Source: Abditibacterium sp.
GTDB lineage: Bacteria > Armatimonadota > Abditibacteriia > Abditibacteriales > Abditibacteriaceae
NCBI GenBank assembly: GCA_965199495.1
Contig: CBDASK010000003.1
Coordinates: forward strand, 3,392,001 to 3,456,000
Direction of reading: 5' to 3'
Length of the DNA stretch: 64,000 bases
Below the pieces are notes generated by a model. It was not told where the DNA came from. It saw only the letters and a program-made list of their open reading frames with translations, and did not search any database. Made by a program: the position numbers and the translations under genes. Numbering within the stretch: position 1 is the stretch's first letter; the number at the start of each line of letters is the position of its first letter. Of this stretch, positions 591-63,998 are shown piece by piece.

Positions 591-1829
591 ATGGCACACA
601 TCAACGACAATTACCTCAAGCTCAAAGCGGGCTATCTGTTTCCCGAAATTTCGCGGCGCGTCAAAGCGTTCACCGATTCCAACCGCGAAGGCGCCGCGCG
701 CCTGATTCGCTGCGGCATCGGCGACGTGACCGAACCGCTCCCACAAGCCGCCATTGACGCGTTAAAAAGTGCGACCGATGAACTGGGCAATCGCGCGAGC
801 TTTCGTGGTTACGGCCCTGAACAAGGCTACGACTTTTTGCGCGAAGCCATCGCCAAAAATGAATATCAAGAGCGCGGCATCAACATTTCTGCCGATGAAA
901 TCTTCGTAAGCGATGGCTCGAAATGCGACACCGCCAACATCCTCGATATTTTCGGCGACGACAATATCATCGCCGTCACCGATCCGGTTTACCCAGTTTA
1001 CGTGGACACCAACGTGATGGCCGGACATACCGGCGAGGCCGACGAAAACGGTCAATATGCCGGGTTGGTTTATCTCAAATGCACGCGCGAAAACGGCTTC
1101 GTCGCGCCGCCGCCAACTCAAAAAGTGGACATCGCGTATTTGTGTTTTCCCAACAACCCGACGGGCGCCGTGGCTACTCGCGAGCAACTGCAAGAATGGG
1201 TGGATTACGCCCTCAAAAACGACACGATTTTGCTGTTCGACGCCGCTTATTCCGATTATATTTCGCGTCCAGATGTTCCGCGTTCGATCTACGAAATCGA
1301 AGGCGCGCGCAATTGCGCCATCGAATTTCGCTCGTTTTCCAAAAGTGGCGGCTTTACCGGCGTGCGTTGCGCTCTCACGGTTGTTCCCGAAACTTTGACG
1401 GCGAAATCGGGCACAGGCGAAGAGGTGCCGTTGCATAAATTGTGGTTGCGCCGCTCGACGACGAAGTTCAACGGCGTTTCCTATCCGATTCAGCGCGCGG
1501 CGGAGGCTTTGTATAAATTCGACGGGCGCCAGCAGGTGCGCGAATTGGTTGAGCATTACATGGGCAACGCGCACATTTTGCGCGAAGCGGCGCGCGAGGC
1601 TGGTTTGGAAGTTTACGGCGGCGAAAACGCGCCCTATATTTGGATCGCGACGCCGTCGGGCCTGACGAGTTGGGACGTTTTCGACAAAATGCTGAGTGAA
1701 GCCAACGTCGTCGTCACGCCCGGTTCGGGCTTTGGCGCGCAGGGCGAAGGCTTCTTCCGCGTCTCGGCGTTCAACTCGCGCGAAAACGCGGAAGAGGTGG
1801 CGACGCGGATTAAAAACGTGAATTGGTAG
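591..1829 (+). CDS. dapL: LL-diaminopimelate aminotransferase
   Basis: [29 protein letters not shown] and PLP-lysine motif [12 protein letters not shown] typical of DapL. Confidence 0.95.
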
Positions 1830-1839
1830 AAAGCCAATT

Positions 1840-1904
1840 GTAGAGACGCCGATTTATCGCGTCTAAAACATGAAATTTTAGACGCGATAAATCGCTGTCT
1901 CTAC
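1840..1904. repeat. REP-like inverted repeat, family A (GTAGAGACGCCGATTTATCGCGTCT)
   Basis: GTAG-headed inverted pair; near-identical copy at 43301-43395. Confidence 0.85.
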
Positions 1905-1913
1905 GAAATCCAA

Positions 1914-2864
1914 ATGAAAATTATCGTATTAGATGGCACGCCGCTCGACATTGGCGATATGAATTGGGATGCGCTGCGTGAGCTGGGCGAAGTCACGATT
2001 TACGACCGCACCGCACCCGACGAAGTCGCCGCGCGCATCGCGGGCGCTGACGCCGTTTTTAACAATAGCGTGGCACTCACCGCGCAGCATTTCGCGGGCG
2101 CGCCGACAGTGAAATACGTCGGCAAAATGTCCACGGGTTTCGATAATGTGGATGTGCAAGCCGCGCGCGCAAACGGCATCACGGTTTGCAACGTGCCGTC
2201 GTATTCCGCGCATTTCACCGCGCAAACCGCCATCGCTTTGCTGTTGGAGTTGTGCCATCGCGTTGGCAGCCACGCCGACGCCGTGGCTGCTGGTGCGTGG
2301 AGCAAATCGTATTATTATTCGTTTTGGAACGGCCCGCTCATCGAACTCGAAAACAAAACTTTGGTGATCCTCGGAATGGGCGCGATTGGCCGTCGCGTCG
2401 CGGCCATCGGCGAGGCATTGGGAATGCGCGTTGTCGCCGCGCAGTCGCCGGGCCGCGATTACGATGCGGATTCGCTGCACATTCCTTTAACCGAAGCGTT
2501 GCCCCTCGCCGATGTCGTTTCACTGCATTGCCCGCTCCGACCCGAAACGCGCGCCCTCGTCAACGCCGAGTTTCTGGCGCAAATGAAGCCGTCTGCGTTT
2601 TTGATTAACACCGCGCGCGGCGGCTTAATTGACGAAGCGGCGTTAGCGAGGGCGTTGCAAAACGGCACAATCGCCGGGTTCGGCGCCGACGTGTTGAGCG
2701 CCGAGCCGCCGCCCGACGATAACCCGTTGATTGGCGCGCCCAACGCGATTATCACGCCTCACATGGGCTGGGCTTCGGTTGAAGCGCGCGCACGGTGTTT
2801 GCAAACGTGCGTTGAAAATTTGCGCGCGTATTTGGATGGAAGTCCGCGCAATGTCGTCTCGTAA
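1914..2864 (+). CDS. D-2-hydroxyacid dehydrogenase (glycerate dehydrogenase/hydroxypyruvate reductase-like)
   Basis: GMGAIG nucleotide-binding motif, SLHCPL, INTARGGLIDE, TPHMGW. Confidence 0.9.
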   Translation: MKIIVLDGTPLDIGDMNWDALRELGEVTIYDRTAPDEVAARIAGADAVFNNSVALTAQHFAGAPTVKYVGKMSTGFDNVDVQAARANGITVCNVPSYSAHFTAQTAIALLLELCHRVGSHADAVAAGAWSKSYYYSFWNGPLIELENKTLVILGMGAIGRRVAAIGEALGMRVVAAQSPGRDYDADSLHIPLTEALPLADVVSLHCPLRPETRALVNAEFLAQMKPSAFLINTARGGLIDEAALARALQNGTIAGFGADVLSAEPPPDDNPLIGAPNAIITPHMGWASVEARARCLQTCVENLRAYLDGSPRNVVS

Positions 2865-2867
2865 AAA

Positions 2868-2995
2868 GCCACAAAGGGCACAAAGAAGCCCAAAGAAGTT
2901 AATTTGTAAAAGCAAAAATTTAAAATTTAATTCTTTACGTTTTAACTTCTTCGGGCTTCTTTGTGCCCTTTGTGTGTTCTCTGTGAACTTTGTGG
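2868..2995. repeat. Palindromic repeat, family B (GCCACARAG.../...TCTGTGGC), degenerate copy
   Basis: CACAAAG-rich left arm and its reverse complement around an AT-rich loop; related copies at 10376, 21581, 27079, 33709. Confidence 0.75.
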
Positions 2996-3004
2996 GTAAA
3001 AACG

Positions 3005-3034
3005 AAAACCGCGCACCAATCGGCGCGCGGTTTT
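3005..3034 (-). terminator. Intrinsic terminator downstream of the tRNA pair
   Basis: AAAACCGCGC...GCGCGGTTTT hairpin. Confidence 0.6.
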
Positions 3035-3044
3035 GATTTCTAAA

Positions 3045-3131
3045 AGGAGAGAGCGGGATTTGAACCCGCGATAGTTTTTACGCTATAACTTCTTAGCAGG
3101 AAGTCGCCTTAAACCACTCAGCCATCTCTCC
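3045..3131 (-). tRNA. tRNA-Ser(GCT), atypical copy
   Basis: Reverse complement folds as a cloverleaf: GGAGAGA/TCTCTCC acceptor, ACTTC-CTGCTAA-GAAGT anticodon arm, long variable arm, GCGGG-TTCAAAT-CCCGC T arm; discriminator U; no CCA. Confidence 0.85.
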
Positions 3132-3200
3132 AGATGGGTGAATTGAAAAGCGACTATAACTTCGATTTTTCATGGTTTAAGGCGACCTCCGTTAGAGATT

Positions 3201-3283
3201 TGCACGAGAGAGGACTTGAACCTCCACGCCCTTGCGGGCACTAGATTCTGAGTCTAGCGCGTCTGCCATTCCGCCACTCGTGC
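3201..3283 (-). tRNA. tRNA-Leu(CAG)
   Basis: GCACGAG acceptor, CTAGA-CTCAGAA-TCTAG anticodon arm, variable arm, GGTTCAAGTCC T loop. Confidence 0.95.
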
Positions 3284-3334
3284 GAGTGCTTTTAGCGAAG
3301 TCGGGTTGGGAAACAACGCCAAAGGCAAAGAGAA

Positions 3335-3363
3335 ATTATAACGTTTGGCGCCCGATGCGTCAA
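3335..3363 (-). promoter_or_regulatory. Sigma70-type promoter for the tRNA-Leu/tRNA-Ser transcript
   Basis: Minus strand TTGACG-17 bp-TATAAT, about 50 bp upstream of tRNA-Leu. Confidence 0.7.
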
Positions 3364-3389
3364 GCCAATTCGCGATAAAATTTAACGCG

Positions 3390-4292
3390 ATGATTTTAGC
3401 TCTGGAACTCCAGCCCGACAGCGCACGCGGCCACGCGCTCGACGAGATGGGAACCATTCAATATGCGCGCGTCCACTCTTTGGCTTCGGCTTTGACGCCC
3501 GCGCAAAGATGGCTCGAACTCATCGAATTGGCGCGCGACGTGGGCGCAGGCGTCGCGCTCGAACCCGCGCAAATGGCGCGCATTGTTCTGGTTTTTCCGG
3601 GCGAACTTGACGCCGCCGGGCGCGTGAAGGCGGGCGCCGATGGTTTCGGCGGCTACGACTTAAAACGCGGATTGCGCGAACATTTGCACACGGGCGAGGC
3701 CGAAATCGTCGTCGCCTCGGACGGCGTGGCTGATGCGTGGGCGCAGACGCAAGCGGGCGTGTTGCGCGAATGGGACGATTGGATTTATCTCGGCATCGGC
3801 GAGCAATTGGAAAGCGTGGCGTGCGTGCGCGGCGTTTGGCTGCAACCGAATTTGGGCGGCTTGGTTTTGCAGCGCGACGGCGCGATGGACAGCGCCGGGC
3901 GACAAGGCACGTTCAGCGCCTATTGCGCGGGATTGTCGTTTGCCGAGCGCACGCGCAGTTACAGTTTGAACGTGGCGCCGCGCGAGATTTGGGCGTTAGC
4001 CGATACGAATTTCGCCGCGCAATCGTTGGCACGCGATTACGTTTCGCGCTTGGCGCAGGGACTGGCGAGTTCGGTTGCGGCACTTTCTCCGCGTCGCATT
4101 TGCATCGGCGGCGATTTGGGGCGCGAGATATTTTCGCAAATTCACGCTGAGTTAGCGTCGGAGTTGCGAGATTATGGGCACGCTGCTGCGTGGCATGGGG
4201 CTATCGTTTTAAGCGCGTCTGGCGCGGCGCATCCCGAAAGTATCGCGCCGGGCGCGTTGGCCTTAGCCACGTTGGGCGAGCCGCCACTGTAA
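3390..4292 (+). CDS. Divergent ROK-family protein (sugar kinase/regulator fold)
   Basis: ROK-like layout (FPGELD, DGVADAWA, IYLGIG, G-T-FSAYCAG, ICIGGDL); catalytic motifs degenerate; start taken at MILALE. Confidence 0.6.
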   Translation: MILALELQPDSARGHALDEMGTIQYARVHSLASALTPAQRWLELIELARDVGAGVALEPAQMARIVLVFPGELDAAGRVKAGADGFGGYDLKRGLREHLHTGEAEIVVASDGVADAWAQTQAGVLREWDDWIYLGIGEQLESVACVRGVWLQPNLGGLVLQRDGAMDSAGRQGTFSAYCAGLSFAERTRSYSLNVAPREIWALADTNFAAQSLARDYVSRLAQGLASSVAALSPRRICIGGDLGREIFSQIHAELASELRDYGHAAAWHGAIVLSASGAAHPESIAPGALALATLGEPPL

Positions 4293-4378
4293 ATGGCGGA
4301 AGTTGGAAGCTAAAATGCACGTAAATCGCTTGCTGTTGGCATCCTTCTCACTTCCGACTTCCAACTTCTTAAAATATC

Positions 4379-5947
4379 ATGGATTCTCTTCAACTCTGGA
4401 ACCGTTTCAAGCACTACTACTTTAGCGATGACGCTTTAGGTTTTGCCCTCGACATTTCGCGCATGAATTTTGGCGATAACTTCTTCGCCGATTTCGAGCC
4501 GAAATTGCAAAAAGCCTACGCGCAGATGGACGAACTGGAGCGTGGCGCCATCGCCAATCCCGATGAGAAACGTCGAGTCGGCCATTACTGGTTGCGCAAT
4601 CCGCAACTGGCGCCCGACGATTTGGGCGCACAAATCACGGCAGTGCTGGACAAGATTAAAACATTTGCATCGCAAGTTCACGACGGCGAAATTATGCCGC
4701 CAAGCGGCGGCAAATTCGAGCATCTGCTCATCATCGGCATCGGCGGTTCGGCATTGGGGCCGCAGTTCGTCACCAACGCTTTGTCGTGGCCGGGCCGCGA
4801 CCAAATGAACGCGCACTTTTTCGACAACACCGATCCCGACGGCATCGAGCGCACGCTCGCCGAAATCGGTGACAATCTGAAGAACACTTTGACAATCGTG
4901 ATTTCTAAGTCGGGCGGCACCAAAGAAACGCGCAACGGAATGTTGGAAGCGCAGGCCGCCTATCACGAAGCCGGTTTGGACTTCGGGCAACACGCCGTGG
5001 CTATTACCGGCGAAGGTTCGCAACTCGATAAAGTCGCGCAGCACGAACGCTGGCTCGAACGCTTCGCCATGTTCGATTGGATCGGCGGGCGCACCTCGGA
5101 ACTCAGCGCCGTTGGCTTGTTGCCCGCCGCGTTGCAGGGCTTCGATATTGACGCGATGTTGAGTGGCGCCGCTCAAATGGATGCGCTGACGCGGCGTCAC
5201 GAAACCCTGAAAAACCCCGCCGCGTTAATGGCGGCGATGTGGCATTTCGCGACGAACGGCAAGGGCGAGAAAGATATGGTGATTTTGCCGTATAAAGATC
5301 GTTTGGCGTTGTTTTCGCGTTATTTGCAGCAGTTAGTGATGGAAAGTTTGGGTAAAGAAAAAGATTTGCAGGGCAACGTCGTGCATCAGGGCATCGCGGT
5401 TTACGGCAACAAAGGTTCGACCGACCAACACGCTTACGTGCAACAGTTGCGCGACGGCGTCCCTAATTTCTTCGCGATTTTCGTCGAAGTTTTGCACACG
5501 CGCGACGCTGCCAAACTCGAAGTCGAGCCGGGCGTGACTTCGGGCGATTTCCTGAGCGGCTTTTTGTATGGCACGCGCAAAGCGTTATATGAAAACGACC
5601 GTGGCTCGCTGACAATTACGGTTGACCGCGCCGACGCGCAAACCGTCGGCGCTTTAATCGCGTTGTTCGAGCGCACGGTTGGCTTTTACGCGAGCTTTGT
5701 GAACATTAACGCCTACGACCAACCGGGCGTTGAAGCGGGCAAAAAAGCGGCGCAAAGCATCATCGAAATGCAAAGTCATCTGATGACCGTATTGCAGGAC
5801 GGCGGCGGCACTTCCGACGATTTGGCGATGCGCATCGGCGCGCAGGACAAGGCCGAAGACGTGTTTCACATCCTCAACCACTTGGCCGCCAACAAGCGCG
5901 TCAAAGCCAGCGAAGCCGGGCCAAACGCAACGTTTGAGTTGAATTAA
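4379..5947 (+). CDS. pgi: Glucose-6-phosphate isomerase
   Basis: [44 protein letters not shown]. Confidence 0.97.
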
Positions 5948-5960
5948 TTTTTGGCGAAAT

Positions 5961-6003
5961 AAAAAAGCACCGATCGCATCCCAGATGCAATCGGTGCTTT
6001 TTT
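5961..6003. terminator. Bidirectional intrinsic terminator
   Basis: AAAAAAGCACCGAT...ATCGGTGCTTTTTT between convergent genes. Confidence 0.85.
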
Positions 6004-6008
6004 GTTAA

Positions 6009-6476
6009 TTAAATATCGCGCCATAGACGAGCGTCGCAAAAGTAATTGAGATGTTTGGGATTGGTCGTCGCCAAAGTCGTGTGACCGCCCGCCGCTTCAT
6101 CGGCCCAGAAGCGCGTTGCGGCGCGCACTTGCGCCACCAAAACCATGTCGCCATCGAGCGATAAATTGTTGGTCGCGGGTTTGCCAATGTTGCGCGCTTC
6201 CACCCAAATTTGCGCGGCTTCGAGCATCGTCTGCGTATCAATCGGCAGGTATTCTAAGGTTGATTTCAATAGATTCAGGCTGGCGAGGCCCGCTGCTTTG
6301 TTGGCGCGAATCAGTTCCCGCCGAACTTCATAGTCGGCGATTTCGGGAATGACAACGATGTCGCCGTTTGCAATCAAAGCGAACATCCATTCTTTCGCTT
6401 CGTCGTTTTCCGGCGAGGCTTTGGGATTGGAAATCTTGCCCAACGGCCCGCTATCAAGCACGGTGATTCGTCTCAT
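6009..6476 (-). CDS. PIN-domain (VapC-like) ribonuclease toxin
   Basis: VLDSGPLG, IPEIADYEVRREL, DGDMVLVAQ, ATTNPKH acidic PIN motifs. Confidence 0.85.
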   Translation of the reverse strand: MRRITVLDSGPLGKISNPKASPENDEAKEWMFALIANGDIVVIPEIADYEVRRELIRANKAAGLASLNLLKSTLEYLPIDTQTMLEAAQIWVEARNIGKPATNNLSLDGDMVLVAQVRAATRFWADEAAGGHTTLATTNPKHLNYFCDARLWRDI

Positions 6477-6781
6477 GAAGAATCATCGCCGTCGTCGGGA
6501 AAATATGGACGATTGGGCGAAAGCCGATCTTCGTCCAAGGCTTTTTTCAAGAACGCCCACGTCTCTTTTTGTTCCTCGATTTCTTCGGGCGTAAAATTAT
6601 CCCATGCGCGCAAAACTCGGAGAGCTTCGATATTGCGCGGACGATTGGCTTGTTTACGCGAAGGTAATCGCGCCAACGCACGATCTCTTCTCATGCTCAC
6701 CGGCGGAAATTCATTCTCTTTAACTTTGTTTTTCGGTTTGGTTTGCGTTGCCATTGCGACATCACCTCTTTTCTCCATCAC
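6473..6781 (-). CDS. Putative antitoxin of the PIN toxin
   Basis: Small ORF overlapping the toxin start by 4 bp; C-terminal EQKETWAFLKKALDEDRLS; start may be 6754. Confidence 0.7.
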   Translation of the reverse strand: MMEKRGDVAMATQTKPKNKVKENEFPPVSMRRDRALARLPSRKQANRPRNIEALRVLRAWDNFTPEEIEEQKETWAFLKKALDEDRLSPNRPYFPDDGDDSS

Positions 6782-6813
6782 AGTTTAGAAGAAACTGCCA
6801 CTTTGCCCCGAAA

Positions 6814-7830
6814 TCAAGCCGCCGTTCCGTTGAGGTGCGGCAAGAATTCTTTGACTTCGCCCGCCAACTTCGCCGGGTCTTCCAAATCGCCCAACTTGCG
6901 GAAACGTTGATAGCGCGCTTCCAATAATTCGTCGGGCGAGTATTGTTCGACTTCGGCCAAATGGCGCCCGATGGCTTCTTCCAAATTGCGGCCCATTTGC
7001 GGCAAATCGCGGTGTGCGCCGCCCAACGGTTCGGGCACGATTTCTTCGATGACGCCCAAACGCAACGCGTCTTCGGCGGTGATGCGCAATTGTTCGCTGG
7101 CGAGCGGCGCTTTGGCGGCGTCGCGGAATAGAATCGCGGCGCAACCTTCGGGCGAAATCACCGAATAATAGGCGTGTTCGAGCATCAAAACGCGGTCGCC
7201 CAGCGCCGTGGCTATGGCGCCGCCCGAACAACCTTCGCCGATAATCACCACGATAATCGGCACGCGCAAACGGCTCATTAGTAACTGCGAATGGGCGATG
7301 GCTTCCGAGATGCCGCGCTCTTCGGCGGCGGGTGAACAGGCGGCGCCCGGCGTATCCACGAGGGAAATAATCGGGCGATTAAATCTTGCGGCCAGTTCCA
7401 TGACGCGGCCCGCTTTGCGCAATCCTTCGGGCGAGGGTTGGCCGAAATTGCGCAACTGTCGTTCTTTGGTGTCGCGGCCTTTCTGATTGCCAATCACAGC
7501 CACGGGGCGCCCATTGAAGCGCGCGAAGCCAGCGACGACGGCGCCATCGTCGCCATAAGCGCGGTCGCCGTGAATTTCCGTCCATTCGGTGCAAAGCGCG
7601 CCGATGTAATCGAGCGAGTAGGGACGTTTAGGATGACGCGCCATTTGAACTTTATCCCACGACGACAGACCGCCAAAAATCTGGCGCATCATCGCGGTTT
7701 TCTGGGTTTCGATGCGCTCAATTTTCGAGTCGAGATTGAGGTTTTCAGTTGCGGCCAGACGTTTCAACTCGTCAATTTGTTCTTCGAGTTCAACAAGCGG
7801 TTTTTCAAAGGGAAGCCAACGGGAAAGCAT
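6814..7830 (-). CDS. accA: Acetyl-CoA carboxylase carboxyltransferase alpha subunit
   Basis: FEKPL, ARHPKRP, HGDR, RNFG, DTPGA, YSVISPEGCAAIL, GGAHRD. Confidence 0.97.
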   Translation of the reverse strand: MLSRWLPFEKPLVELEEQIDELKRLAATENLNLDSKIERIETQKTAMMRQIFGGLSSWDKVQMARHPKRPYSLDYIGALCTEWTEIHGDRAYGDDGAVVAGFARFNGRPVAVIGNQKGRDTKERQLRNFGQPSPEGLRKAGRVMELAARFNRPIISLVDTPGAACSPAAEERGISEAIAHSQLLMSRLRVPIIVVIIGEGCSGGAIATALGDRVLMLEHAYYSVISPEGCAAILFRDAAKAPLASEQLRITAEDALRLGVIEEIVPEPLGGAHRDLPQMGRNLEEAIGRHLAEVEQYSPDELLEARYQRFRKLGDLEDPAKLAGEVKEFLPHLNGTAA

Positions 7831-7927
7831 GAGTAAATTCAATTGGGCGCGCAATTGCGGCGTTTCAGTTTAAGGCGAAATGTCATTCTGAGCGGCGATT
7901 TTCGCTCCCTTCGTTGTCATACTGAGG

Positions 7928-8164: not shown

Positions 8165-8287
8165 TGGGTGGCAATCAACTGGCGTTCCAGAGGCTTCATC
8201 TGCCCTGACTACATCGGGCGCCCAGGCATCCGGCTACGCCAAGCGTCCTCACGGACGCGAATTGAGCTGTTTTCCTATTCGCATTGT

Positions 8288-9103: not shown

Positions 9104-9106
9104 GGG

Positions 9107-9219: not shown

Positions 9220-9272
9220 CTTAGCTTGCCTGATTTAGAGCGTTTTAGCCAACTTTTGTTCACTTAACTTCG

Positions 9273-55708: not shown

Positions 55709-55723
55709 GGGTCGAATCCCCAA

Positions 55724-56767: not shown

Positions 56768-56775
56768 AATAATTT

Positions 56776-56810
56776 GAAAGCGCCGCCCAAAAATTTTGGG
56801 CGGCGCTTTC
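56776..56810 (-). terminator. Hairpin downstream of aspS
   Basis: GAAAGCGCCGCCCAAA-AAT-TTTGGGCGGCGCTTTC. Confidence 0.75.
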
Positions 56811-56814
56811 GAGT

Positions 56815-58632
56815 TTACTCATCTTCCTCGCGCGGCAATTCCGCCAAGCCCATCTCCGCCCAACGCTCGACAGGAATATAAGTCGGCGCGCCCGTCAGAG
56901 GGTCTTGGCCACCGCTCGTTTTGGGAAACGGAATTACTTCGCGGATGTTGCCGTCGGCGATGCCTGCCAGCAAAGCCACGACGCGGTCGAAACCGGGCGC
57001 GATGCCGCCGTGTGGCGGCGCGCCGTATTCAAACGCATCGAGCATAAATCCGAAACGTTCCTGCGCGATTTCCATTGGCAAACCGATAACATCGAAGATT
57101 TGCTGCTGAATGTCGCGGCGATGGCAACGAATCGAACCGCTCGCCAACTCGAAACCGTTGAGAACTAAATCGTAAAGCCACGCGCGAATCAAAGCGTGCG
57201 GGTGCAGCGAGTCGCCTTTGGATAGGTTTGTGGTGAAACCCTCGGCGAGCAAATGCATATCTTCCGGGTTGGGCAGGCAAAACGGATGATGCGCGGCGTC
57301 GAAAGTGCCGGATGACGCGTCGTATTCAAACATCGGCGTATCCACGATCCACAGAAAATTGAATTTGTCGCGCGGAATCAAATCCAATCGCTGCGCCATT
57401 TCGCGGCGCAAAAAGTCGAGCGATTGCGCGACAACGCTCGGTTTATCGGCGACGACCAACACTAAATCGCCCGGCCCGGCGTTCATGCGCTCGAAAATGC
57501 CGTTCATCTGATCTTCGGTGAAAAACTTGGCGACGTTCGATTTAATTTCACTTTCGCCCTTAGCAAACGTGGCCAATCCGCGCGCACCGAAACGTTTGAC
57601 GAGTTCGGTCAATGCGTCCACTTCCTTGCGCGAATAAGCAGCCACGCCGGGCGCGCAGATCGCTTTGACCTGTCCGCCCGTGGCGAGGGCGTTGGTGAAA
57701 ACTTTGAATTGCGAATCGGCAACGATGTCGCTGATGTCGGTCAACTCCATGCCAAAACGCGTGTCGGGTTTATCGGTGCCAAAACGTCGCATCGATTCGG
57801 CGTAGGGCATCCGCTCGAACGGAAGCGAAATGTCGATGTTTTTCACCGATTTCATCAAATGCGCGAAGAGTTTCTCGGTGAGTTCGAGAATATCGTCTTG
57901 CACGACGAAACTCATCTCGATGTCGATCTGGGTGAATTCGGGTTGGCGGTCGGCGCGCGCGCTTTCGTCGCGGAAACAGCGCGCGATTTGGAAATACTTC
58001 TCGATGCCGCCAACCATCAACAACTGCTTGGCGATTTGTGGCGATTGCGGCAACACGAACGCTTTGCCGACCGGCTGGCGAACAGGCACGACATATTCGC
58101 GCGCGCCTTCGGGCGTGGATTTCCATAGCAATGGCGTCTCGACTTCCCAGAAACCTTCGGCGTCCAAGAAATTGCGCGTCTCGCGCGACAGGCGATAACG
58201 CATTTCCAAAATATCGCGCACCGGCGCGCGGCGCATATCGAGATAGCGATATTGCAAACGCACGTCTTCCGAAGCGCGCGTGTCGGGCGTCAATTCAAAC
58301 GGCAGCGGCTTGGATGTGTTGAGAATAATCACTTCGTCAACGCGCACTTCGATTTGGCCGGTGGGAAGTTTGGGATTCTCTTTGCCCGCGACGCGCGCCA
58401 CGACTTCGCCGGTGATTTGCAGACAAAACTCGGATTTGACTTGCGCCAGAACATCGTAGATTTCGGCGTTGATTTCGCGGTCGGCGACGATTTGCACCAA
58501 ACCGGAACGGTCGCGCAGGTCAATGAAGCATTGATACGATTGGTCGCGGACGGTGGAAGACCAACCGCAAAGAGTGACGGTTTGGCCGATATTTTCGGGG
58601 CGAAGTTCGCCGCAATGATGGGTGCGTTGCAT
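56815..58632 (-). CDS. aspS: Aspartate--tRNA ligase
   Basis: RTHHCGELR, FIDLRDRSG, STPEGAR, LPQSPQ, CFRDE, DRQPEFTQID, PPHGGIAPGFDR. Confidence 0.98.
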   Translation of the reverse strand: MQRTHHCGELRPENIGQTVTLCGWSSTVRDQSYQCFIDLRDRSGLVQIVADREINAEIYDVLAQVKSEFCLQITGEVVARVAGKENPKLPTGQIEVRVDEVIILNTSKPLPFELTPDTRASEDVRLQYRYLDMRRAPVRDILEMRYRLSRETRNFLDAEGFWEVETPLLWKSTPEGAREYVVPVRQPVGKAFVLPQSPQIAKQLLMVGGIEKYFQIARCFRDESARADRQPEFTQIDIEMSFVVQDDILELTEKLFAHLMKSVKNIDISLPFERMPYAESMRRFGTDKPDTRFGMELTDISDIVADSQFKVFTNALATGGQVKAICAPGVAAYSRKEVDALTELVKRFGARGLATFAKGESEIKSNVAKFFTEDQMNGIFERMNAGPGDLVLVVADKPSVVAQSLDFLRREMAQRLDLIPRDKFNFLWIVDTPMFEYDASSGTFDAAHHPFCLPNPEDMHLLAEGFTTNLSKGDSLHPHALIRAWLYDLVLNGFELASGSIRCHRRDIQQQIFDVIGLPMEIAQERFGFMLDAFEYGAPPHGGIAPGFDRVVALLAGIADGNIREVIPFPKTSGGQDPLTGAPTYIPVERWAEMGLAELPREEDE

Positions 58633-58687
58633 GATACTTAAATGAGAGCTTGGAAAGTATAACGATGGGAATTTTACGGGTTGCGAT

Positions 58688-59599
58688 ATGAAACGATTTT
58701 CCGCGCGCGAGTTCGCGCTATTGTGCGTGCCGGTGGCTGTTGTTGCGGGCGCGGGTTGGTGGGCGGCGCGTCGCCCAAAGCCTGAACCTTATATCGCGCC
58801 GAAATTCTCGCTGAGTTATGAACCTCCGTCGTCGCTCAAAGCGTTCGAGGGCGCCAGAACTGTGATCGTCGCCAAATTGAGTAAGGATTCGCAGGGCAAT
58901 CCCTATATGTTAGACGGTTTGAAAAGTCCCAAATTTTGGCTCGATGTTACCACGCCGCAGGGCATTAAGAGTTGGCGCACCGATGGAACCGGCACTTTTC
59001 AAATCAAAGGTGCTTCTGCGATGAATGGCGCAAACCAGTGGTATTACATCTATCTGACTCAATTGCCCGCTGGCGATTTGACTTTTGGTGTCAGTGGAAC
59101 GGCTGTGAGTTCGTCTTTTCCAAGTTCAGCCCAACCGCATTGGATCAAACAGAAATTGCCCGTAGATAAAACCAAACTGCAAGAATTCGATTTCTCGTTG
59201 CCACGCGCGCCGCTTATCAAACTAAAATCCGCGACGATTTCACAAATCACCCGGCCAATCAGAGCGATCATTCAATTGACTTTCGTTTTGCAGGGCACAA
59301 AGAAAGCAGAAGAAATTGCTGTTCAAACAGATTTGAAAGAATCACATGGCTACGTCCTTTCCAGTTCGATGCAGTTGGATTCAAACGTGCCCCGAAGCCT
59401 CATCGTTGAACCAGATGTTGCTGATGCCAACGGTTTGACCGAGAAAATTGAATTGACCGGACGCATCAGCGCCGATAATCGTTGGCCGCTCGCTTTTAAA
59501 ATCGAGCCGTTCGATTTCAAAAACATTAAAGTTGGTCAAAAACTCAAATTCAAATCGTGGCCCGCGCCGCTTCCATCTGGCGTTGTGTTGAAGAAGTAA
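58688..59599 (+). CDS. Membrane-anchored hypothetical protein, distant member of the paralog family
   Basis: MKRFSAREFALL anchor and C-terminal GRISADNRWPLAFKIE resemble members 1-3. Confidence 0.7.
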   Translation: MKRFSAREFALLCVPVAVVAGAGWWAARRPKPEPYIAPKFSLSYEPPSSLKAFEGARTVIVAKLSKDSQGNPYMLDGLKSPKFWLDVTTPQGIKSWRTDGTGTFQIKGASAMNGANQWYYIYLTQLPAGDLTFGVSGTAVSSSFPSSAQPHWIKQKLPVDKTKLQEFDFSLPRAPLIKLKSATISQITRPIRAIIQLTFVLQGTKKAEEIAVQTDLKESHGYVLSSSMQLDSNVPRSLIVEPDVADANGLTEKIELTGRISADNRWPLAFKIEPFDFKNIKVGQKLKFKSWPAPLPSGVVLKK

Positions 59600-59725
59600 A
59601 CCTAATTTAGAACCGCGTTTTAATCGCTGGTTTCAGGTAACTTTAAGGTTTAACACGCTATTTTTTGTCAATTTTTAAACCCTGTGTCAATTCTCGCGTC
59701 GAATCGGGCGCTTGGAGAATGACAC

Positions 59726-60853
59726 ATGATTCAACCTAACTTTCACAGCAACGATGGCGCGACCGGTGTTTTTGCGGGTGTTCCTGCGATGTCAATGCCG
59801 ACTTTGATGCCGCTGGGCGAAGGCTTGCTCTTTTTACGTTTCGAGAGTCTGAGCGCGATTCGATTGGCCGTGGCTGCATTGAAGAGCGCGCGGTTTGAAT
59901 TGCAACGCAGTGGCGAAGTTTTGTCGGTTCGCGTTGCGCGAACTGATATCGAGCGCTTGACGCAAACGTTGGCGGGTTGCTTGAGTTTGGTCGAGCAGGG
60001 CGCGATTCGCGTGATCTGGGAAGCCGTTGGTCGCGCGCTTTCGATTCGCGATTGCTTCGATGTGCAGACGCTACGCGAGTGGCTGGCGCGCGCGCAGTCC
60101 GGTTGGTTTTTGCAGATGATGCGCGACGACAAGTTCGAGGCGCATTTTCAGCCGATTGTTTCCGTGCGTAATCCCGGCGAAATTTTCGGTTACGAAAGTT
60201 TGTTGCGCGGCGTCTCCGAGCAGGGTTTAATCGCGCCGCTCTCGCTTTTTGAAGTCGCGGGCGGTTTACAGATGCGCGGCGCTCTCGATGGCAAGGCGCG
60301 CCAGAACGCGATTTGCCGGGCCGGTTCGCTGAACATGAAAGAACGTTTGTTCATTAATTGTCTGCCCTCGGCTTTGGACGACGCGCCCGCCGCGTTGCGC
60401 GCGACGTTGAACATCGTGGAAGACGCCGGTTTGAAACACGAGCAGATCGTGTTGGAAATTGTCGAAAGCGAACGCATCGAAGACGCCAAGGCTTTGCGCG
60501 CGGGTTTGGAACTGTTCCGGCGCGCGGGCATCGGCATCGCACTGGACGACTTGGGCGCGGGTTACGCGTCGCTGCATTTATTGGAAAGGTTGCGCCCCGA
60601 TTACGTCAAGCTCGACCGCGAGTTGATTGGTGGCGTGGATAAAGACGGATTCAAAGCCGTCATCGCGCACAAGTTGTTGGAAACCGCGCATGGTTTGAAT
60701 ATCGTCACCGTCGCCGAGGGCGTCGAAACGGCGGACGAATGGGATTGGTTGCGCGCTCACGGCGGCCAGTTGGCGCAGGGTTATTTCTTCGCGCGACCAG
60801 CAGCCACGTTGCCTTTGCCAGCGCAATGGATGAACGCGATTTCGTTGAATTAA
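59726..60853 (+). CDS. EAL-domain c-di-GMP phosphodiesterase
   Basis: HFQPIV, YESLLR, LFIN, LEIVE, ALDDLGAGY, VKLD, AEGVET, QGYFF. Confidence 0.93.
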   Translation: MIQPNFHSNDGATGVFAGVPAMSMPTLMPLGEGLLFLRFESLSAIRLAVAALKSARFELQRSGEVLSVRVARTDIERLTQTLAGCLSLVEQGAIRVIWEAVGRALSIRDCFDVQTLREWLARAQSGWFLQMMRDDKFEAHFQPIVSVRNPGEIFGYESLLRGVSEQGLIAPLSLFEVAGGLQMRGALDGKARQNAICRAGSLNMKERLFINCLPSALDDAPAALRATLNIVEDAGLKHEQIVLEIVESERIEDAKALRAGLELFRRAGIGIALDDLGAGYASLHLLERLRPDYVKLDRELIGGVDKDGFKAVIAHKLLETAHGLNIVTVAEGVETADEWDWLRAHGGQLAQGYFFARPAATLPLPAQWMNAISLN

Positions 60854-60904
60854 TTGGCGTTTTCGCGCGCAACGCGGAAACTGTAACGCAAGTTTTTCAT
60901 TCCC

Positions 60905-61452
60905 ATGTCGCGCCGCGTTTTTCTCGCTTTATTTCTGTGCGCCCTCGTTTCGCCCGCGCCCGCGCAAACTTTGCATCGCGAATTCGCCCAAGCCGACGCC
61001 GCGTGGGACAAGCGCGATTATGCGGCGGCGGAAGCGCATTTTAATAGCGCGCTTAAGTGGGTTGGCGATGATGAAAACGCTGAAGCGCACGCCTATTTTG
61101 GACGTGGCGCGATGCGTTTGCAGCAAAAAAGTGGTCGAGCGCGCGCGACGATTTGACGCGTTCGATTGATCTCAATCCCAATAATCCCGAAGCGTTCGCT
61201 TCGCGCGGCATGGCGCGCAAAGCGCTGGGCGATTACACCGGTTTGCTCGCCGATGCGCATCGCGCCGCGCAACTTGACGCGGATTATGTGGGCTTTGAAG
61301 ACGACGCGAAATCCACCGTCAACTGGAAGCGCGCGATGCTGGGCTTTCTCGTTTTGGCCTTCATTTTGGGAGCCGTGGGAGTCGTGCCGATGATGCGCAG
61401 TTTTGCGCACATTATCAAAGCCGAATCACAGGCGCGCGCGAAAGAGGGATGA
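60905..61452 (+). pseudogene. Exported TPR protein with C-terminal TM, frameshifted at an A6 run (or sequencing error)
   Basis: Adding one A to the run at 61125-61130 joins the ORFs as ...LQQKKWSSARDDLTRSIDLNPNN..., a continuous TPR. Confidence 0.7.
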
Positions 61453-61653
61453 GCGGAAGCATTTGTGAAAACCCAAAGAATGAATTGGCGTGCGCAACGT
61501 CGGCATTGGATGTGCGTTGGAAAATATGCAAGGTAAAATATCATGAAACCAAAAATGTTCTCCAAACCCGTCCGATGGCTCCTCGAAGGCGCGCTCGCTA
61601 TCGCCGCAAGCGGCGCGATTTTCTTTTTGAGCTAACGCCGCAATTCTCCTTTT

Positions 61654-62106
61654 ATGAACTCGCGTGAGCGCACCCGTTGGATGCCGTGGACAGACCCGAT
61701 TTGTCTGGCGGCGTGGGGTGCGTATTGTCTCAATCGTTTCGTGTTGGCGCCGCAATGGGGCGATACATTGCCGTTTTTGCGCGAACACTTCAACGATTCC
61801 CTGCTCATTCCTGCCGCGTTGCCATTGCTTTATTGGGCGCGTTTTGGGTTGGGATTGCGCGAAACCGATGCGCCGCCAACGTGGCGCGATGTTTTGTTGT
61901 GGTGCGCGGGTTGGTCGCTCTTCTTCGAGTGGATCGGCCCCCGCTATTTGCATTATTCGGTCGGCGATTGGGGCGACGTGGCTGCTTATTTCGTCGGTGG
62001 CATCATCGCGGCGGCGTGGTGGAATCGCGGTTGCAAACGCGCTCATAAACGCGAAATGCTCGAAGCAAAACAGGGTGGACGAAGCGGCGCGTCTCCATTA
62101 AGCTAA
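61654..62106 (+). CDS. Hypothetical membrane protein
   Basis: Hydrophobic ORF with Y..NR, HFND.L, FEW..P, GDWGD...Y..G pattern. Confidence 0.7.
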   Translation: MNSRERTRWMPWTDPICLAAWGAYCLNRFVLAPQWGDTLPFLREHFNDSLLIPAALPLLYWARFGLGLRETDAPPTWRDVLLWCAGWSLFFEWIGPRYLHYSVGDWGDVAAYFVGGIIAAAWWNRGCKRAHKREMLEAKQGGRSGASPLS

Positions 62107-62117
62107 AGTGCCCCCTT

Positions 62118-62525
62118 ATGGAACGCACCCTCATTGTTTTGAAACCCGACTGCGTGCAGCGCGGTCTGTGCGGCGACGTTTTGTCCCGCTTCGAGAAGCG
62201 CGGCTTTAAAATCGCCGCCATGAAACTGCTCACCGTCTCCAAAGACCTCGCCGAGCAACATTACGCTGAACACGCCGAAAAACCGTTCTTCCCCGGATTG
62301 GTCGAGTTCATCACCGGCGCGCCGAGTTTGGCGATGGTTTTGGAGGGTCAGGACGCCATCGCGCTATCGCGCCAGATGATCGGCGCGACCAACCCGCTCG
62401 ATGCCAACCCCGCCACGATTCGCGGCTCGTTGACCAACGACAAACAGTTCAACCTGATTCACGGTTCGGATTCCGCTGATTCGGCCAGCCGCGAATTGAA
62501 GTTGTGGTTTCCCGAATTGAGTTAG
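62118..62525 (+). CDS. ndk: Nucleoside-diphosphate kinase
   Basis: ERTL..LKPD.VQR, HYAEH..KPFF, GATNP, TIRG, NLIHGSDS. Confidence 0.98.
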   Translation: MERTLIVLKPDCVQRGLCGDVLSRFEKRGFKIAAMKLLTVSKDLAEQHYAEHAEKPFFPGLVEFITGAPSLAMVLEGQDAIALSRQMIGATNPLDANPATIRGSLTNDKQFNLIHGSDSADSASRELKLWFPELS

Positions 62526-62607
62526 TTTTCTTCGCTGCACCATCTGCCCGTAGAGACACGACAAGTCGGTGTCTCTACGGGCAGATGGTGCAGCGAAGAA
62601 AACTAAC
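62522..62607. repeat. Long hairpin with a GTAGAGAC core (family A-related)
   Basis: TTAGTTTTCTTCGCTGCACCATCTGCCCGTAGAGACAC...GTGTCTCTACGGGCAGATGGTGCAGCGAAGAAAACTAA. Confidence 0.85.
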
Positions 62608-62663
62608 AAAGAAAAAGCGACGAGCAAATTTTCATTTGCTCGCCGCTTTTTGCTTATCCAAAT

Positions 62664-63998
62664 TCACGCCCGAATCACGCCGCGATAATCTTTGGCATCC
62701 GCCGCGAAACCGGGGAAAACCGCTTGCATATCTTTCAGCCCCATGTGTTTGTCGGCGATTTCGGCGAAGACGCTACGAAAATCGGTCGTGACGGCCAAGT
62801 CGCGGTTTTCATACAATTTGTCGGGTGCCAAGCCGGGCCATTGGCCCAGCACTTTGCCGCCAGCCACGTCGCCGCCCAGCGCGATGAAACAGGTGCCGTG
62901 ACCGTGATCCGTTCCGCCGTTGCCGTTCTGGCGCGCGGTGCGACCAAACTCGCTCATCGTCAAAACCGTCACGTCGGCCATGCGGTCGCCCATGTCCGTC
63001 CAGAACGCGGCCAAACTTTGGCCGACATCGCCCAGACGGCGCGCCAACTGGCCATTGGCGCCGCCCTGATTGGCGTGCGTGTCCCAGCCGCCGGTTTCGG
63101 CGAACGCGATTTCGGTTCCGACATCGGCTTTGATCATCTGCGCGATCTGTTTCAGCGAACGGCCCAACTGCGAGTTGCCATAATTCGCGTTGCCGTCGGG
63201 CGCGTATTTATTGGGGTCTAAGCTCGACAGAATTTTGATTGCCTCGAAGGTTTCCTGACCGGTGCCATGCAAAACGTCGCCGACCGCGCCATCGTAAAGC
63301 GCCTCGAATCCGCCGTTGTTATTGCCGCCGCCCATCGAAGCCATCGCGGTTTTTCCGCCGCCGCCACCACTCATGCCGCGACCGACGCCAAAAGTCGCTA
63401 AATCGGCAATCGCGAGCGCGTCGGGATCGCCGTCGAGCGAGCGCGGCAAACGCGCGGTCATCGCGACGGTTTGGATTTGCTTGCCGTGGCTGGTGTCTTC
63501 GGGGCACTGCGCCGAAACGCGCGCCAGCCAACCGGTATTGATGGATTTGTTGCCCGGCACCGCCGATTCCATGTAATCCTGCGCGTCGAAGTGCGAGCGC
63601 GTCGCGTTGGGCGAGCCGACCGCCTGAATCGGCGCCAGATGCCCGGCGTCGTAAATCGGCTTGAGCGCCGCCAACGCCGGGTTCAATCCGAACTTGCCGT
63701 CCAAATCAATCACGCCGCCTTCGCCCGAACGCGCCAGAGCGATGCCATTGTTGCTGACCGAGCGCAGATTATAATAATCAGCGTCGCCGTGCGGCACAAC
63801 AACCGATAATCCGTCAACGGCGCCGCGCAGGAAAATGCAAACCAGCACTTTCTTGCCACCCGCCTTGCGCGTGTTGCGCTGTGCGTCGGCGGCAAACGCC
63901 GTCCCACGCAGAAAATCGGGGCCAAGGCCCGGCATCAAGCCAATCGAAGCCAGCGCCAGAGCGCCGGACTTAAGAAATACGCGTCGTGAAGTGTTCAT
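62664..63998 (-). CDS. Tat-exported DUF1501-family protein
   Basis: SRRVFLK twin-arginine signal; FLRGAVDGL, RSHFDAQ, GGWDTH, SEFGRT, GTDHG. Confidence 0.9.
   Translation of the reverse strand: MNTSRRVFLKSGALALASIGLMPGLGPDFLRGTAFAADAQRNTRKAGGKKVLVCIFLRGAVDGLSVVVPHGDADYYNLRSVSNNGIALARSGEGGVIDLDGKFGLNPALAALKPIYDAGHLAPIQAVGSPNATRSHFDAQDYMESAVPGNKSINTGWLARVSAQCPEDTSHGKQIQTVAMTARLPRSLDGDPDALAIADLATFGVGRGMSGGGGGKTAMASMGGGNNNGGFEALYDGAVGDVLHGTGQETFEAIKILSSLDPNKYAPDGNANYGNSQLGRSLKQIAQMIKADVGTEIAFAETGGWDTHANQGGANGQLARRLGDVGQSLAAFWTDMGDRMADVTVLTMSEFGRTARQNGNGGTDHGHGTCFIALGGDVAGGKVLGQWPGLAPDKLYENRDLAVTTDFRSVFAEIADKHMGLKDMQAVFPGFAADAKDYRGVIRA

What the first reader, a model, noticed from the sequence alone, without database searches (positions are those of the whole stretch)
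1169..63491. Genome-signature 7-mer CGTGGCT/AGCCACG behaving like a DNA-uptake sequence
Seen: a by-eye count gave about 35 CGTGGCT (e.g. 1169, 2282, 4996, 9686, 14099, 26171, 43256, 59869) and about 34 AGCCACG (e.g. 4265, 11882, 24246, 38408, 50580, 57640). That is about 1 per kb, against roughly 10 expected from base composition alone (my rough estimate at about 55% GC). The extended consensus is roughly GCCGTGGCTGC. It occurs in several frames (A-V-A, R-G-W at 9894, A-W-L at 12897, S-H-A at 2268, A-A-T at 11882) and shows no strand bias. It forms closely spaced inverted pairs (2266-2290, 34066-34092, 37616-37633) and a perfect intergenic palindrome between convergent genes (52859-52888). It seems to be missing from the bodies of the AT-richer accessory genes (21730-22950, 44806-45810, 46630-48690, 55724-56767, 58688-59599). 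Known: Neisseria DUS and Pasteurellaceae USS are about 1/kb, unbiased by strand and paired in terminators, whereas Chi and KOPS are strand-polarised. Inference: this is an uptake, recombination or methylation-linked signature I do not know to be described for this lineage.
Basis: partly seen in the sequence, partly recalled or inferred. Interest (0 to 1): 0.85.

Follow-up and report, generated by a model that had tools for sequence, protein, structure and literature searches.

The report
Strand-tiled uptake-like DNA word, Abditibacterium
This bacterium writes one short DNA word about once per kilobase through its genes, evenly spaced along each strand separately, and several relatives keep words of their own; it looks most like the DNA-uptake tags known from Neisseria and Haemophilus, but what reads it has not been found or tested.

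Summary
Confirmed. The window has 69 CGTGGCT (35+/34-; 8 expected) and the chromosome 4,533. The consensus is CG[ACG]CGTGGCTG, 35-fold over a synonymous-codon shuffle, raised in all six frames, and 50.8% on the leading strand (KOPS: 78%). It drops to background on both small contigs and in islands. Only 3 of 13 Abditibacterium genomes carry it, one as a longer, hairpin-rich dialect; two sister genera carry other roughly 1/kb words. No AddAB was found in any of these 9 genomes, whereas all 10 word-free congeners have it. Competence genes are present, but equally so in word-free relatives; there is no ComP. Best reading (0.55): drive by biased natural transformation with a strand-specific step. 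Rivals: a Chi-like signal read without AddAB (0.2), or a methylation-linked site (0.12). The scan reported similar uptake-like words in other bacteria and strand-tiled words in phages before; I found no paper on this lineage.

The parts
1169..63491 (+). 35 copies of CGTGGCT on + : 1169, 2282, 3725, 4996, 5600, 7207, 9686, 9894, 11238, 11995, 12897, 14099, 14963, 17454, 18653, 20252, 20310, 21719, 26171, 28462, 31721, 34066, 36512, 37627, 39893, 41364, 43256, 46617, 49027, 50390, 52864, 55318, 59869, 61977, 63485
   Evidence: gene, frame and flank of each
2268..62868 (-). 34 copies on - (AGCCACG on +): 2268, 4265, 7498, 8573, 11882, 13345, 15558, 19911, 23187, 24246, 28306, 28960, 32207, 33862, 34086, 37616, 38408, 40858, 40959, 41817, 44700, 46544, 49180, 50580, 51373, 52237, 52877, 53275, 55124, 56974, 57176, 57640, 60802, 62862
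   Evidence: In the window, pairs 40-600 bp apart: 7 same-orientation, 19 opposite
52859..52888 (.). Perfect 30-nt palindrome made of two strong copies, between convergent genes (GTPase 51449-52843 + and Memo-like 52894-54147 -); terminator-like stem on the - strand
2268..2288 (.). Close inverted pair inside a 2-hydroxyacid dehydrogenase gene (S-H-A ... A-V-A)
34066..34092 (.). Close inverted pair inside a GTPase gene with a KH domain
37616..37633 (.). Close inverted pair inside an M48 peptidase gene
21719..21725 (+). A copy at the end of an intergenic pyrimidine-rich repeat (family B type); one of the few repeat-linked copies
   Evidence: (family D12)
21730..22950 (.). Word-free, GC 0.48 accessory gene
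44806..45810 (.). Word-free, GC 0.49 accessory gene
46630..48690 (.). Word-free bodies of two paralogous accessory genes, GC 0.51
55724..56767 (.). Word-free, GC 0.46 stretch
58688..59599 (.). Word-free, GC 0.49 accessory gene

Best explanation
The word is a self-marking sequence accumulated by molecular drive during natural transformation, as DUS/USS are. SHOWN: it is written into coding DNA by point changes, against codon and amino-acid preference; it is kept in the sister genome with the same word; it is missing from acquired DNA; a second copy is disfavoured within about 1 kb of a copy on the same strand but not of one on the other strand. INFERRED: DNA carrying the word is taken up or integrated more often, so mutations that create it spread. 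The advantage saturates once a fragment already has a readable copy, which spaces the copies. The reading step sees one orientation at a time, for example the single strand that enters through ComEC, or a pilus/ComEA-linked receptor that feeds DNA in one direction, so the + and - copies form two independent lattices. Palindromic words (G020, G018) and inverted pairs (G004, G017) in relatives would be ways to serve both strands with one site.
For: Top word of the genome at k=6-9. 5.5x (7-mer), 21x (10-mer) and 35x (11-mer) over synonymous shuffles, in all six frames. After C-GTG, Ala is GCT in 1,813 of 3,058 cases against 10% overall. Encodable tripeptides are raised relative to word-free congeners: SHA/SHV/SHG O/E 1.6-1.9 vs 0.7-1.0, DVA 1.39 vs 0.95, as reported for USS/DUS (PMC2817400, passages). 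No replichore bias while KOPS shows it. 0.28/kb in the most codon-atypical genes vs about 1.1/kb; 0 and 2 strong 10-mers on contigs C1 and C2; the largest gaps are islands and a prophage-like region by my reading of the ORFs. Sites kept in G011: 64 of 94, 4-fold identity 0.87 inside vs 0.72 outside. The word-free close relative L221 has none of 23 listed G000 sites, mostly ungapped point differences. Dialect with a shared core in G004, with 49 of 129 sites in intergenic inverted pairs, like Neisseriaceae dialects (PMC3630211, passages). ComEC, ComEA, DprA, PilB/PilT-family ATPases and secretins are present. Solo DUS in three DUS-rich control genomes show the same polarity at short range: 18 same vs 60 opposite pairs at 61-250 bp. 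A toy polar-drive model reproduces the curve and an orientation-blind one does not.
Against: No uptake was measured. ComP_DUS was not found in G000, G004, G011 or G020, while the control G335 has it. The competence genes are equally present in word-free congeners, so they do not discriminate. About half of DUS/USS lie in predicted terminators (10.1101/2025.10.24.684340, passages); here 352 of 4,533 sites are outside called genes. The polarity reaches further than in the DUS controls (250-600 bp: ratio 0.34 here, 0.81 there, not significant there), and part of the control contrast comes from an excess of opposite pairs. USS orientation had no effect on uptake in H. influenzae fragments (PMC1939737 Table 4, passages). 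The amino-acid cost at site codons against G004 (0.227) equals that of one-mismatch control words (0.234), and AWL is not raised. No compensatory turnover of lost sites was seen. Polarity in G011 and G004 points the same way but is not significant in 138 and 235 kb. Earlier scan notes report strand-tiled words in phages, which have no uptake machinery (unchecked).
Confidence: 0.55

Rival explanations
1. A Chi-like polar recombination or repair signal, read inside the cell by an enzyme other than AddAB. A nuclease or helicase that tracks from a DNA end stops or loads RecA at the first copy facing it, so each strand needs one copy per 1-2 kb and both orientations are needed for two-ended breaks or for integrating linear donor DNA. 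The word would have replaced AddAB/Chi in lineages that lost AddAB.
For: Same-orientation exclusion with opposite-orientation independence is what a tracking enzyme predicts. AddA-like and AddB-like genes were found in 10 of 10 word-free congeners and in outgroups G027, G028 and G030, and in 0 of 3 word-bearing congeners, 0 of 6 genus g6 and 0 of 2 genus g3 genomes. HIP1 was proposed to act partly like Chi in transformation (10.1101/2024.09.10.611283, abstract).
Against: Classical Chi needs RecBCD/AddAB, which was not found, and E. coli Chi is oriented with replication and nearly explained by codon usage (10.1101/2021.07.08.451572, passages); neither holds here. No replacement enzyme tracks the words: the DNA2-like nuclease-helicase is in G000, G004 and G011 but also in G016 and G049, which show no word in 47 kb each, and was not found in G018, G020, G022, G024 or G026. 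Seven AddAB-less family genomes (G014, G015, G016, G019, G021, G023, G025) have no known word; only G016 was screened de novo. The association rests on about three lineages. Repair between identical sister chromosomes gives no drive (inference).
Confidence: 0.2
2. A methyltransferase-linked word in the manner of HIP1: an asymmetric site methylated on one strand (Type IIG/IIL/III/ISP style) that marks the parental strand for repair or licenses incoming DNA, so that each strand needs its own marks.
For: One-strand methylation would give per-strand spacing without replichore bias (inference). The words of sister genera are palindromes containing GTAC and TCGA. G000 has at least 13 amino-methyltransferase-like ORFs. 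HIPs are tied to orphan methyltransferases (PMC4390886, passages).
Against: PF02384 hits differ in number and ORF length among G000, G004 and G011, with no obvious shared orphan. The one shared beta-class enzyme (CcrM/DpnA-like) is also in 7 of 10 word-free congeners and in no g6 or g3 genome. This genome strongly avoids many 6-bp palindromes, the usual response to restriction sites. G004 has a 16-17-nt consensus, long for such a target. C5 methyltransferases were checked only by one regular expression.
Confidence: 0.12
3. A binding site for an abundant chromosome-organising or replication-linked protein (nucleoid lattice, priming or restart site) kept by ordinary selection.
For: Even spacing (per-strand CV about 0.8, about 0.6 for the G020 palindrome), about 2 kb per strand, and an excess of inverted pairs 8-20 bp apart, 110 of 136 inside genes, could reflect a dimeric binder. 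HIP1 was proposed to act in chromosome structure (PMC5861425, abstract).
Against: A dsDNA binder should exclude neighbours in both orientations; lagging-strand priming should follow the replichores, and does not. An essential architectural site is hard to square with absence in 10 of 13 congeners and in the close relative L221, and with only 28 of 151 sites shared with G004.
Confidence: 0.08
4. An artefact of codon usage, peptide preference or decayed mobile repeats.
For: 73% of CDS copies fall in two frames that encode common Ala/Val/Thr peptides; an intergenic repeat family ends in TGTGGCT.
Against: Excess over codon-preserving nulls in all six frames; background level in congeners of similar GC and codon use; TGTGGCT and 19 other one-mismatch 7-mers show no exclusion; at most 48 of 4,533 copies have a repeat-like flank.
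Confidence: 0.01

Closest known systems
DNA uptake sequences (DUS) of Neisseriaceae and their dialects, read by the minor pilin ComP (PMC3630211; PMC12616744)
   Same: Non-palindromic 8-12-mer at about 1/kb on both strands, all frames, depleted in acquired DNA, lineage dialects around a shared core, inverted pairs after genes in G004 and G017; short-range same-orientation exclusion also seen in DUS-rich control genomes.
   Different: Other phylum and unrelated sequence; no ComP_DUS domain; 92% of G000 copies in CDS with few terminator pairs; exclusion range about 1 kb rather than about 0.25 kb; some family words are palindromes; uptake untested.
Uptake signal sequence (USS) of Pasteurellaceae (PMC2817400; PMC7811141)
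   Same: About 1 kb spacing, mostly intragenic, raises the encodable tripeptides, arises by point mutation, relatively even distribution attributed to molecular drive.
   Different: No AT-rich flanking tracts in G000; USS orientation reported not to affect uptake (PMC1939737); I could not run a USS spacing control.
Chi sites of RecBCD/AddAB (10.1101/2021.07.08.451572)
   Same: Short G-rich asymmetric word; spacing implies orientation-dependent, first-site-suffices action.
   Different: No replichore bias, not explained by codons, and the cognate enzyme type was not found in any word-bearing genome.
HIP1 and other HIPs of cyanobacteria (PMC4390886; PMC5861425; 10.1101/2024.09.10.611283)
   Same: Hyper-abundant, conserved, in and between genes, patchy among relatives with replacement words; the G020 and G018 words are palindromes at about 1/kb.
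   Different: The G000 word is asymmetric; no methyltransferase that tracks it was found.
KOPS / architecture-imparting sequences
   Same: Asymmetric octamer read directionally.
   Different: KOPS in this genome is 78-91% on one replichore strand at 380 copies; the word is 51% at 4,533 copies.

Membership tests
DUS/USS uptake sequences | Short non-palindromic word at about 1/kb, far above codon-preserving nulls, in all frames | tested here: met
DUS/USS uptake sequences | Both strands, no replichore polarity | tested here: met
DUS/USS uptake sequences | Depleted in plasmids, phages and recently acquired DNA | tested here: met
DUS/USS uptake sequences | Arises in place by point mutation and shifts the proteome | tested here: met
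   the per-site amino-acid cost test was inconclusive
DUS/USS uptake sequences | Large share as inverted pairs in terminators | tested here: not met
   G000: 24 of 136 close inverted pairs intergenic, 352 of 4,533 sites outside CDS. Met by the G004 dialect, 49 of 129 sites, and by G017.
DUS/USS uptake sequences | Dialects that follow phylogeny | tested here: inconclusive
   G000/G011 vs G004 share the core; L221, sister to G004 in a ComEC FastTree, has no word in 22.6 kb
DUS/USS uptake sequences | Competence and type IV pilus machinery | tested here: met
   present in word-free relatives too
Neisseriaceae DUS | ComP receptor (PF16732) | tested here: not met
   0 of 4 Abditibacteriaceae genomes; control G335 positive
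DUS/USS uptake sequences | Sequence-biased DNA binding and uptake by competent cells | not testable with these tools
   needs uptake assays
Chi (RecBCD/AddAB) | Cognate RecBCD or AddAB helicase-nuclease | tested here: not met
Chi (RecBCD/AddAB) | Orientation bias with replication | tested here: not met
   50.8% leading
Chi (RecBCD/AddAB) | Orientation-dependent action | tested here: inconclusive
   implied by spacing, not measured
HIP1-type repeats | Palindromic word | tested here: not met
   G000 word is asymmetric; palindromic in G020 and G018
HIP1-type repeats | Orphan methyltransferase whose site lies in the word | tested here: inconclusive
   specificities cannot be read from sequence
HIP1-type repeats | Methylation of the word in vivo | not testable with these tools
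   needs a methylome
KOPS/AIMS | Strong replichore skew | tested here: not met
REP / MITE-derived repeats | Inserted, mostly extragenic, longer conserved unit | tested here: not met
   92% in CDS, flank information ends within about 3 nt, ungapped orthologous sites

The most novel reading that the evidence does not exclude
Abditibacteriaceae have repeatedly replaced AddAB/Chi with an undescribed single-strand-reading system that needs a lineage-specific word every 1-2 kb on each strand, acting on incoming or broken DNA after strand separation. Its words range from asymmetric (G000) through inverted pairs (G004, G017) to palindromes (G020, G018), which would link DUS-, Chi- and HIP1-type repeats as forms of one mechanism.
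Probability: 0.2. Interest if true: 0.92.

Novelty: new variant of a known kind. Interest (0 to 1): 0.76.

Why it matters
In the papers I saw, sequence-specific uptake tags are described for two families, Neisseriaceae and Pasteurellaceae. A third system in a distant, little-studied group, with at least five different words inside one family, a word-free close relative and no ComP, would give a natural series for finding a new DNA receptor by co-evolution and for timing how fast such a word is written into a proteome. The coincidence with missing AddAB, if it holds in more lineages, would tie genome self-marking to a change in double-strand-break processing. Practically, the word should help to bin these genomes and to spot their islands, and may be needed to transform them.

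Tried and rejected
Decayed repeat B origin: at most 48 of 4,533 copies have a repeat-like flank, TGTGGCT shows no exclusion (0.91), and the repeat end also occurs in word-free congeners. Replichore polarity: GC skew and 4-fold-site skew were too weak to define replichores; an oligomer scan found them through KOPS and dnaA, and the word is unpolarised. CcrM/DpnA-like methyltransferase: also in 7 of 10 word-free congeners. Palindrome avoidance as a marker of the word clade: equally strong in word-free congeners. Compensatory turnover of lost sites: not seen, small numbers. rpoB tree: rows G005 and G006 were wrong ORFs and were disregarded; the ComEC tree was cut from the output and was redone with FastTree. 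Viral contigs with an inverted pair: 80 of at least 119 loci examined, none with a clear excess of the strong 10-mer (at most 2 per locus). Sequencing runs: no RNA holder listed; contigs of four runs laid on window 12000-31900 gave only a truncated difference table, not used. L221 is not in a held genome, so its AddAB status is unknown. The type IV pilus operons of relatives were not compared, and no structure or complex was predicted. No USS spacing control was run. Literature searches without a description of this word or lineage: (motif strings plus 'Abditibacteri'); the library lacks most subscription papers, and I read no supplementary files, where k-mer surveys might list it.


Full report
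ORIGIN. The window is G000:C3:3392001-3456000 of a 4.81-Mb assembly in 3 contigs, 95% complete. The genome tool places G004 in the same genus, and a collection scan with an inverted-pair pattern returned records titled Abditibacterium sp. whose contig lengths equal those of G004, so I treat G000 as Abditibacterium (NCBI Abditibacteriota). Genes were called with my own dicodon model (4,167 genes, 85% coding), which misses some AT-rich genes. The window holds ordinary housekeeping and accessory genes and four tRNAs.

The window has 69 copies of CGTGGCT, 35 on + and 34 on -, against 8.0 expected. The chromosome has 2,277 and 2,256; the word and its extensions are the top-scoring 6- to 9-mers against an order-3 Markov model. 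Flanks give CG[ACG]CGTGGCTG(C), with a sharp core: 690 copies of CGCCGTGGCTGC against 0-17 for any single change in the seven core positions. In coding DNA the 7-mer occurs 4,159 times against 754 +/- 28 in 10 synonymous-codon shuffles, the 10-mer 2,571 against 124 and the 11-mer 1,942 against 56; all six frames exceed the null, by 1.5- to 11-fold for the 7-mer.

WHERE IT SITS. 4,158 of 4,533 copies are in called CDS (1.04/kb); spacers have 0.28-0.70/kb, convergent ones 0.70. Density falls to 0.28/kb in the most codon-atypical 5% of genes. Contigs C1 and C2 carry 8 in 24.7 kb and 12 in 64.6 kb, with 0 and 2 strong 10-mers, and the largest gaps on C3 contain integrase, heavy-metal, capsule-type and phage-like ORFs by my reading. 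An oligomer scan finds the replichores: KOPS flips near dnaA (2.03 Mb) and near 4.33 Mb. GGGNAGGG is 298 of 380 on one replichore strand; CGTGGCT is 2,302 of 4,533 (p=0.30), the 8-mer 51.7% (p=0.06). So it is not KOPS-like or Chi-like in polarity.

THE NEW FEATURE: TWO INDEPENDENT LATTICES. Pair counts split by orientation show that same-orientation copies avoid each other and opposite ones do not. For the 10-mer, observed/expected is 0-0.3 below 400 bp, 0.3-0.9 at 400-1,000 bp and about 1 beyond 1.5 kb, while opposite pairs stay near 1 except for a 3-fold excess below 20 bp; two control words are flat. For the 11-mer at 40-600 bp there are 104 same and 526 opposite pairs (529 expected; p=9e-69). 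Within single genes, sense-sense pairs are 683 of 1,133 expected, antisense-antisense 358 of 617, and sense-antisense 1,675 of 1,672, so gene orientation does not cause it. Used as a read-out, exclusion maps the functional word: of 21 one-mismatch 7-mers only GGTGGCT is excluded by strong sites (0.51, p=3e-8); CGTGGCT with neither preferred flank is not (0.88). A hand-tuned point-process toy in which a site gains only if no readable site lies within about 0.3-0.8 kb reproduces the curves if only same-strand sites count, and depletes both classes if orientation is ignored. This shows consistency, not mechanism. About 46% of their sites are in close inverted pairs; the 506 solo sites give 18 same against 60 opposite pairs at 61-250 bp (p=2e-6), but 64 against 79 at 250-600 bp (not significant), where G000 gives 113 against 336. 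Part of the control contrast is an excess of opposite pairs. Polarity is therefore compatible with true uptake sequences but is longer-ranged here.

RELATIVES. CGVCGTGGCTGC occurs 1,323, 1,024 and 420 times in G000, G011 and G004, at most 11 times in the other 10 congeners and at most 37 in the other 48 of 61 genomes searched. The three have RpoB 97% identical against 78-81% for eight other congeners (two rows were wrong ORFs) and group in a ComEC tree. Seven word-free congeners screened de novo (110-200 kb each) show no dispersed word at this density. G004 has a longer dialect, about YRGRACGTGGCTGGTRTC, with 66 of 129 sites in inverted pairs, 49 of them intergenic. Sites are conserved with G011 (64 of 94; 4-fold identity 0.87 vs 0.72) but mostly not with G004 (28 of 151; 0.53 vs 0.67), so most G000 sites are younger than that split or decayed after it. 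A metagenome contig, L221, sister to G004 in the ComEC tree, has 1 copy in 22.6 kb and no other word; none of 23 listed G000 sites is kept, mostly by ungapped point differences. Encodable tripeptides are raised in G000 against pooled word-free congeners (SHA 1.64 vs 0.74, SHV 1.86 vs 0.66, DVA 1.39 vs 0.95, AAT 1.49 vs 1.15; AWL unchanged); a per-site test of amino-acid cost was inconclusive. Other genera of the family carry other words: AGTACGGTCG in G017 (42 in 47 kb, mostly as a 22-24-nt inverted pair), the palindrome TCGAGTACTCGA in G020 (core GAGTACTC 40 in 40 kb), the shared pattern AGTACN{0,2}TCGA at 750-3,300 per strand in 5 of 6 genus g6 genomes, and AAAGTACTTT 1,987 times in G018 and about 1/kb in three metagenome loci.

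MACHINERY. ComEC is in 13 of 13 congeners; ComEA-type and DprA hits are in G000, G004, G011, G009 and G012 (the G012 ComEA hit is a short frame); PilB/PilT-family ATPases and secretins are in all 5 genomes searched. G000 has a type IV pilus operon at C3:861101-880963 with four minor pilins and two large PilX/PilY-like paralogues by my reading. ComP_DUS was not found in G000, G004, G011 or G020. An AddA-like helicase and an AddB-like nuclease (best NCBIfam matches AddA and TIGR03623/RexB, all below the curated cut-offs) are in 10 of 10 word-free congeners and in outgroups G027, G028 and G030, and were not found in G000 (tblastn finds only UvrD/PcrA), G004, G011 or any genome of genera g3-g6 (G015 has a 751-aa PF12705 frame and G013 a weak 1,225-aa AddA hit). 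All 9 word-bearing genomes thus lack it as far as these searches see, but they are about three lineages, several are incomplete (63-95%), and seven AddAB-less genomes have no known word. A DNA2-like nuclease-helicase and a CcrM/DpnA-like methyltransferase were tested as readers and do not track the words.

HOW IT MOST LIKELY WORKS. Shown: point-mutation origin, retention, depletion in acquired DNA, per-strand saturation over about 1 kb, dialects, presence of uptake genes. Inferred: a force strong enough to place thousands of sites in coding DNA within a shallow clade is most simply biased gene conversion through transformation, the accepted model for USS/DUS (PMC7811141, PMC2817400). Saturation follows when one site per fragment suffices. 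Strand specificity says that the biased step reads one orientation, which fits the single strand that enters the cytoplasm, or a directional hand-over at the pilus. I give this 0.55. Methylation gets 0.12 and an architectural or replication site 0.08.

COMPARISON AND NOVELTY. It works like DUS/USS but is not a member of the Neisseriaceae DUS family (no ComP, few terminator pairs in G000) and fails the tests for Chi, KOPS, REP and palindromic HIP1. Papers seen: passages of PMC1939737, PMC7811141, PMC3630211, PMC4390886, 10.1101/2025.10.24.684340 (107), 10.1101/2021.07.08.451572 (111), PMC2817400 and PMC12616744; abstracts of PMC5861425 and 10.1101/2024.09.10.611283 (74); the listing of PMC7430649. 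No supplements were read. Searches gave no description of this word, of such words in Abditibacteriaceae, or of orientation-specific spacing of uptake sequences. The scan's own unchecked notes report uptake-like words in several other bacterial lineages and strand-tiled words in phages and a giant virus, and none for this word, genome or family. I measured the strand-specific spacing before reading them. The phage cases caution that strand tiling need not mean uptake.

VERDICT. A real, strong genome signature; a new variant of a known kind; interest 0.76.

Noticed in passing
G000 whole chromosome; congeners: Extreme avoidance of 6-bp palindromes (CGGCCG, CTCGAG, CCCGGG, CCGCGG, TTCGAA at 0.01-0.02 of expectation) and of CTAG and GTAC, shared by all Abditibacteriaceae sampled and stronger than in the DUS-rich controls.
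   Followed up: partly
L213-L214 (G020), L211-L212 (G017), L224-L226, G018: Other roughly 1/kb signature words in sister genera: TCGAGTACTCGA, AGTACGGTCG as a 22-24-nt inverted pair, and AAAAGTACTTTT; all contain GTAC, which G000 avoids. G014 and G025 show small excesses of AAAGTACTTT and may carry further dialects.
   Followed up: partly
L221 (metagenome contig, 22.6 kb): Close relative inside the word clade without the word; a natural control for loss or for dating the gain.
   Followed up: partly
L153:11365-15630 (-) (G000 C3:4111368-4115630): 1,421-aa DNA2-like protein, N-terminal PD-(D/E)XK nuclease plus C-terminal SF1B helicase, present in the three congeners in which AddAB was not found; split with an internal stop in G011.
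   Followed up: partly
G000 C3:872853-880963: Two tandem paralogous proteins of about 1,300 aa with PilX-like N-termini at the end of the type IV pilus operon; 47 prepilin-motif hits in the genome, mostly DUF1559-like by my regular expression.
   Followed up: no
L039:14510-16389 (G004): CcrM/DpnA-like methyltransferase next to a probable restriction endonuclease (DpnII-like by my recall; no NCBIfam match); the methyltransferase is in 10 of 13 congeners.
   Followed up: partly
window 1840-1905, 43300-43396, 62521-62607; 10372-10544, 27079-27226; 7987-8067, 12735-12808, 49664-49762: Several intergenic palindromic repeat families (GTAG-type REP-like, pyrimidine-rich family B, and a GGGCGCAAGCCCCGC family).
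   Followed up: no
window 15306-17522 (-): TPR protein with internal repeats at 138-141-nt spacing.
   Followed up: no
window 44806-48692 (-): Three paralogous genes of no Pfam family with near-identical 5' ends and diverged, word-free bodies.
   Followed up: no
G000 chromosome; L055-L064 (G006): A word set around TCTCACAAGACCCGATTA, about 131 copies and strongly strand-skewed in G000, and a 41-copy repeat in the G006 sample look like CRISPR arrays.
   Followed up: no
L165-L204 (DUS-rich control genomes): Solo DUS copies also avoid same-orientation neighbours at 61-250 bp; I found no paper reporting this.
   Followed up: partly
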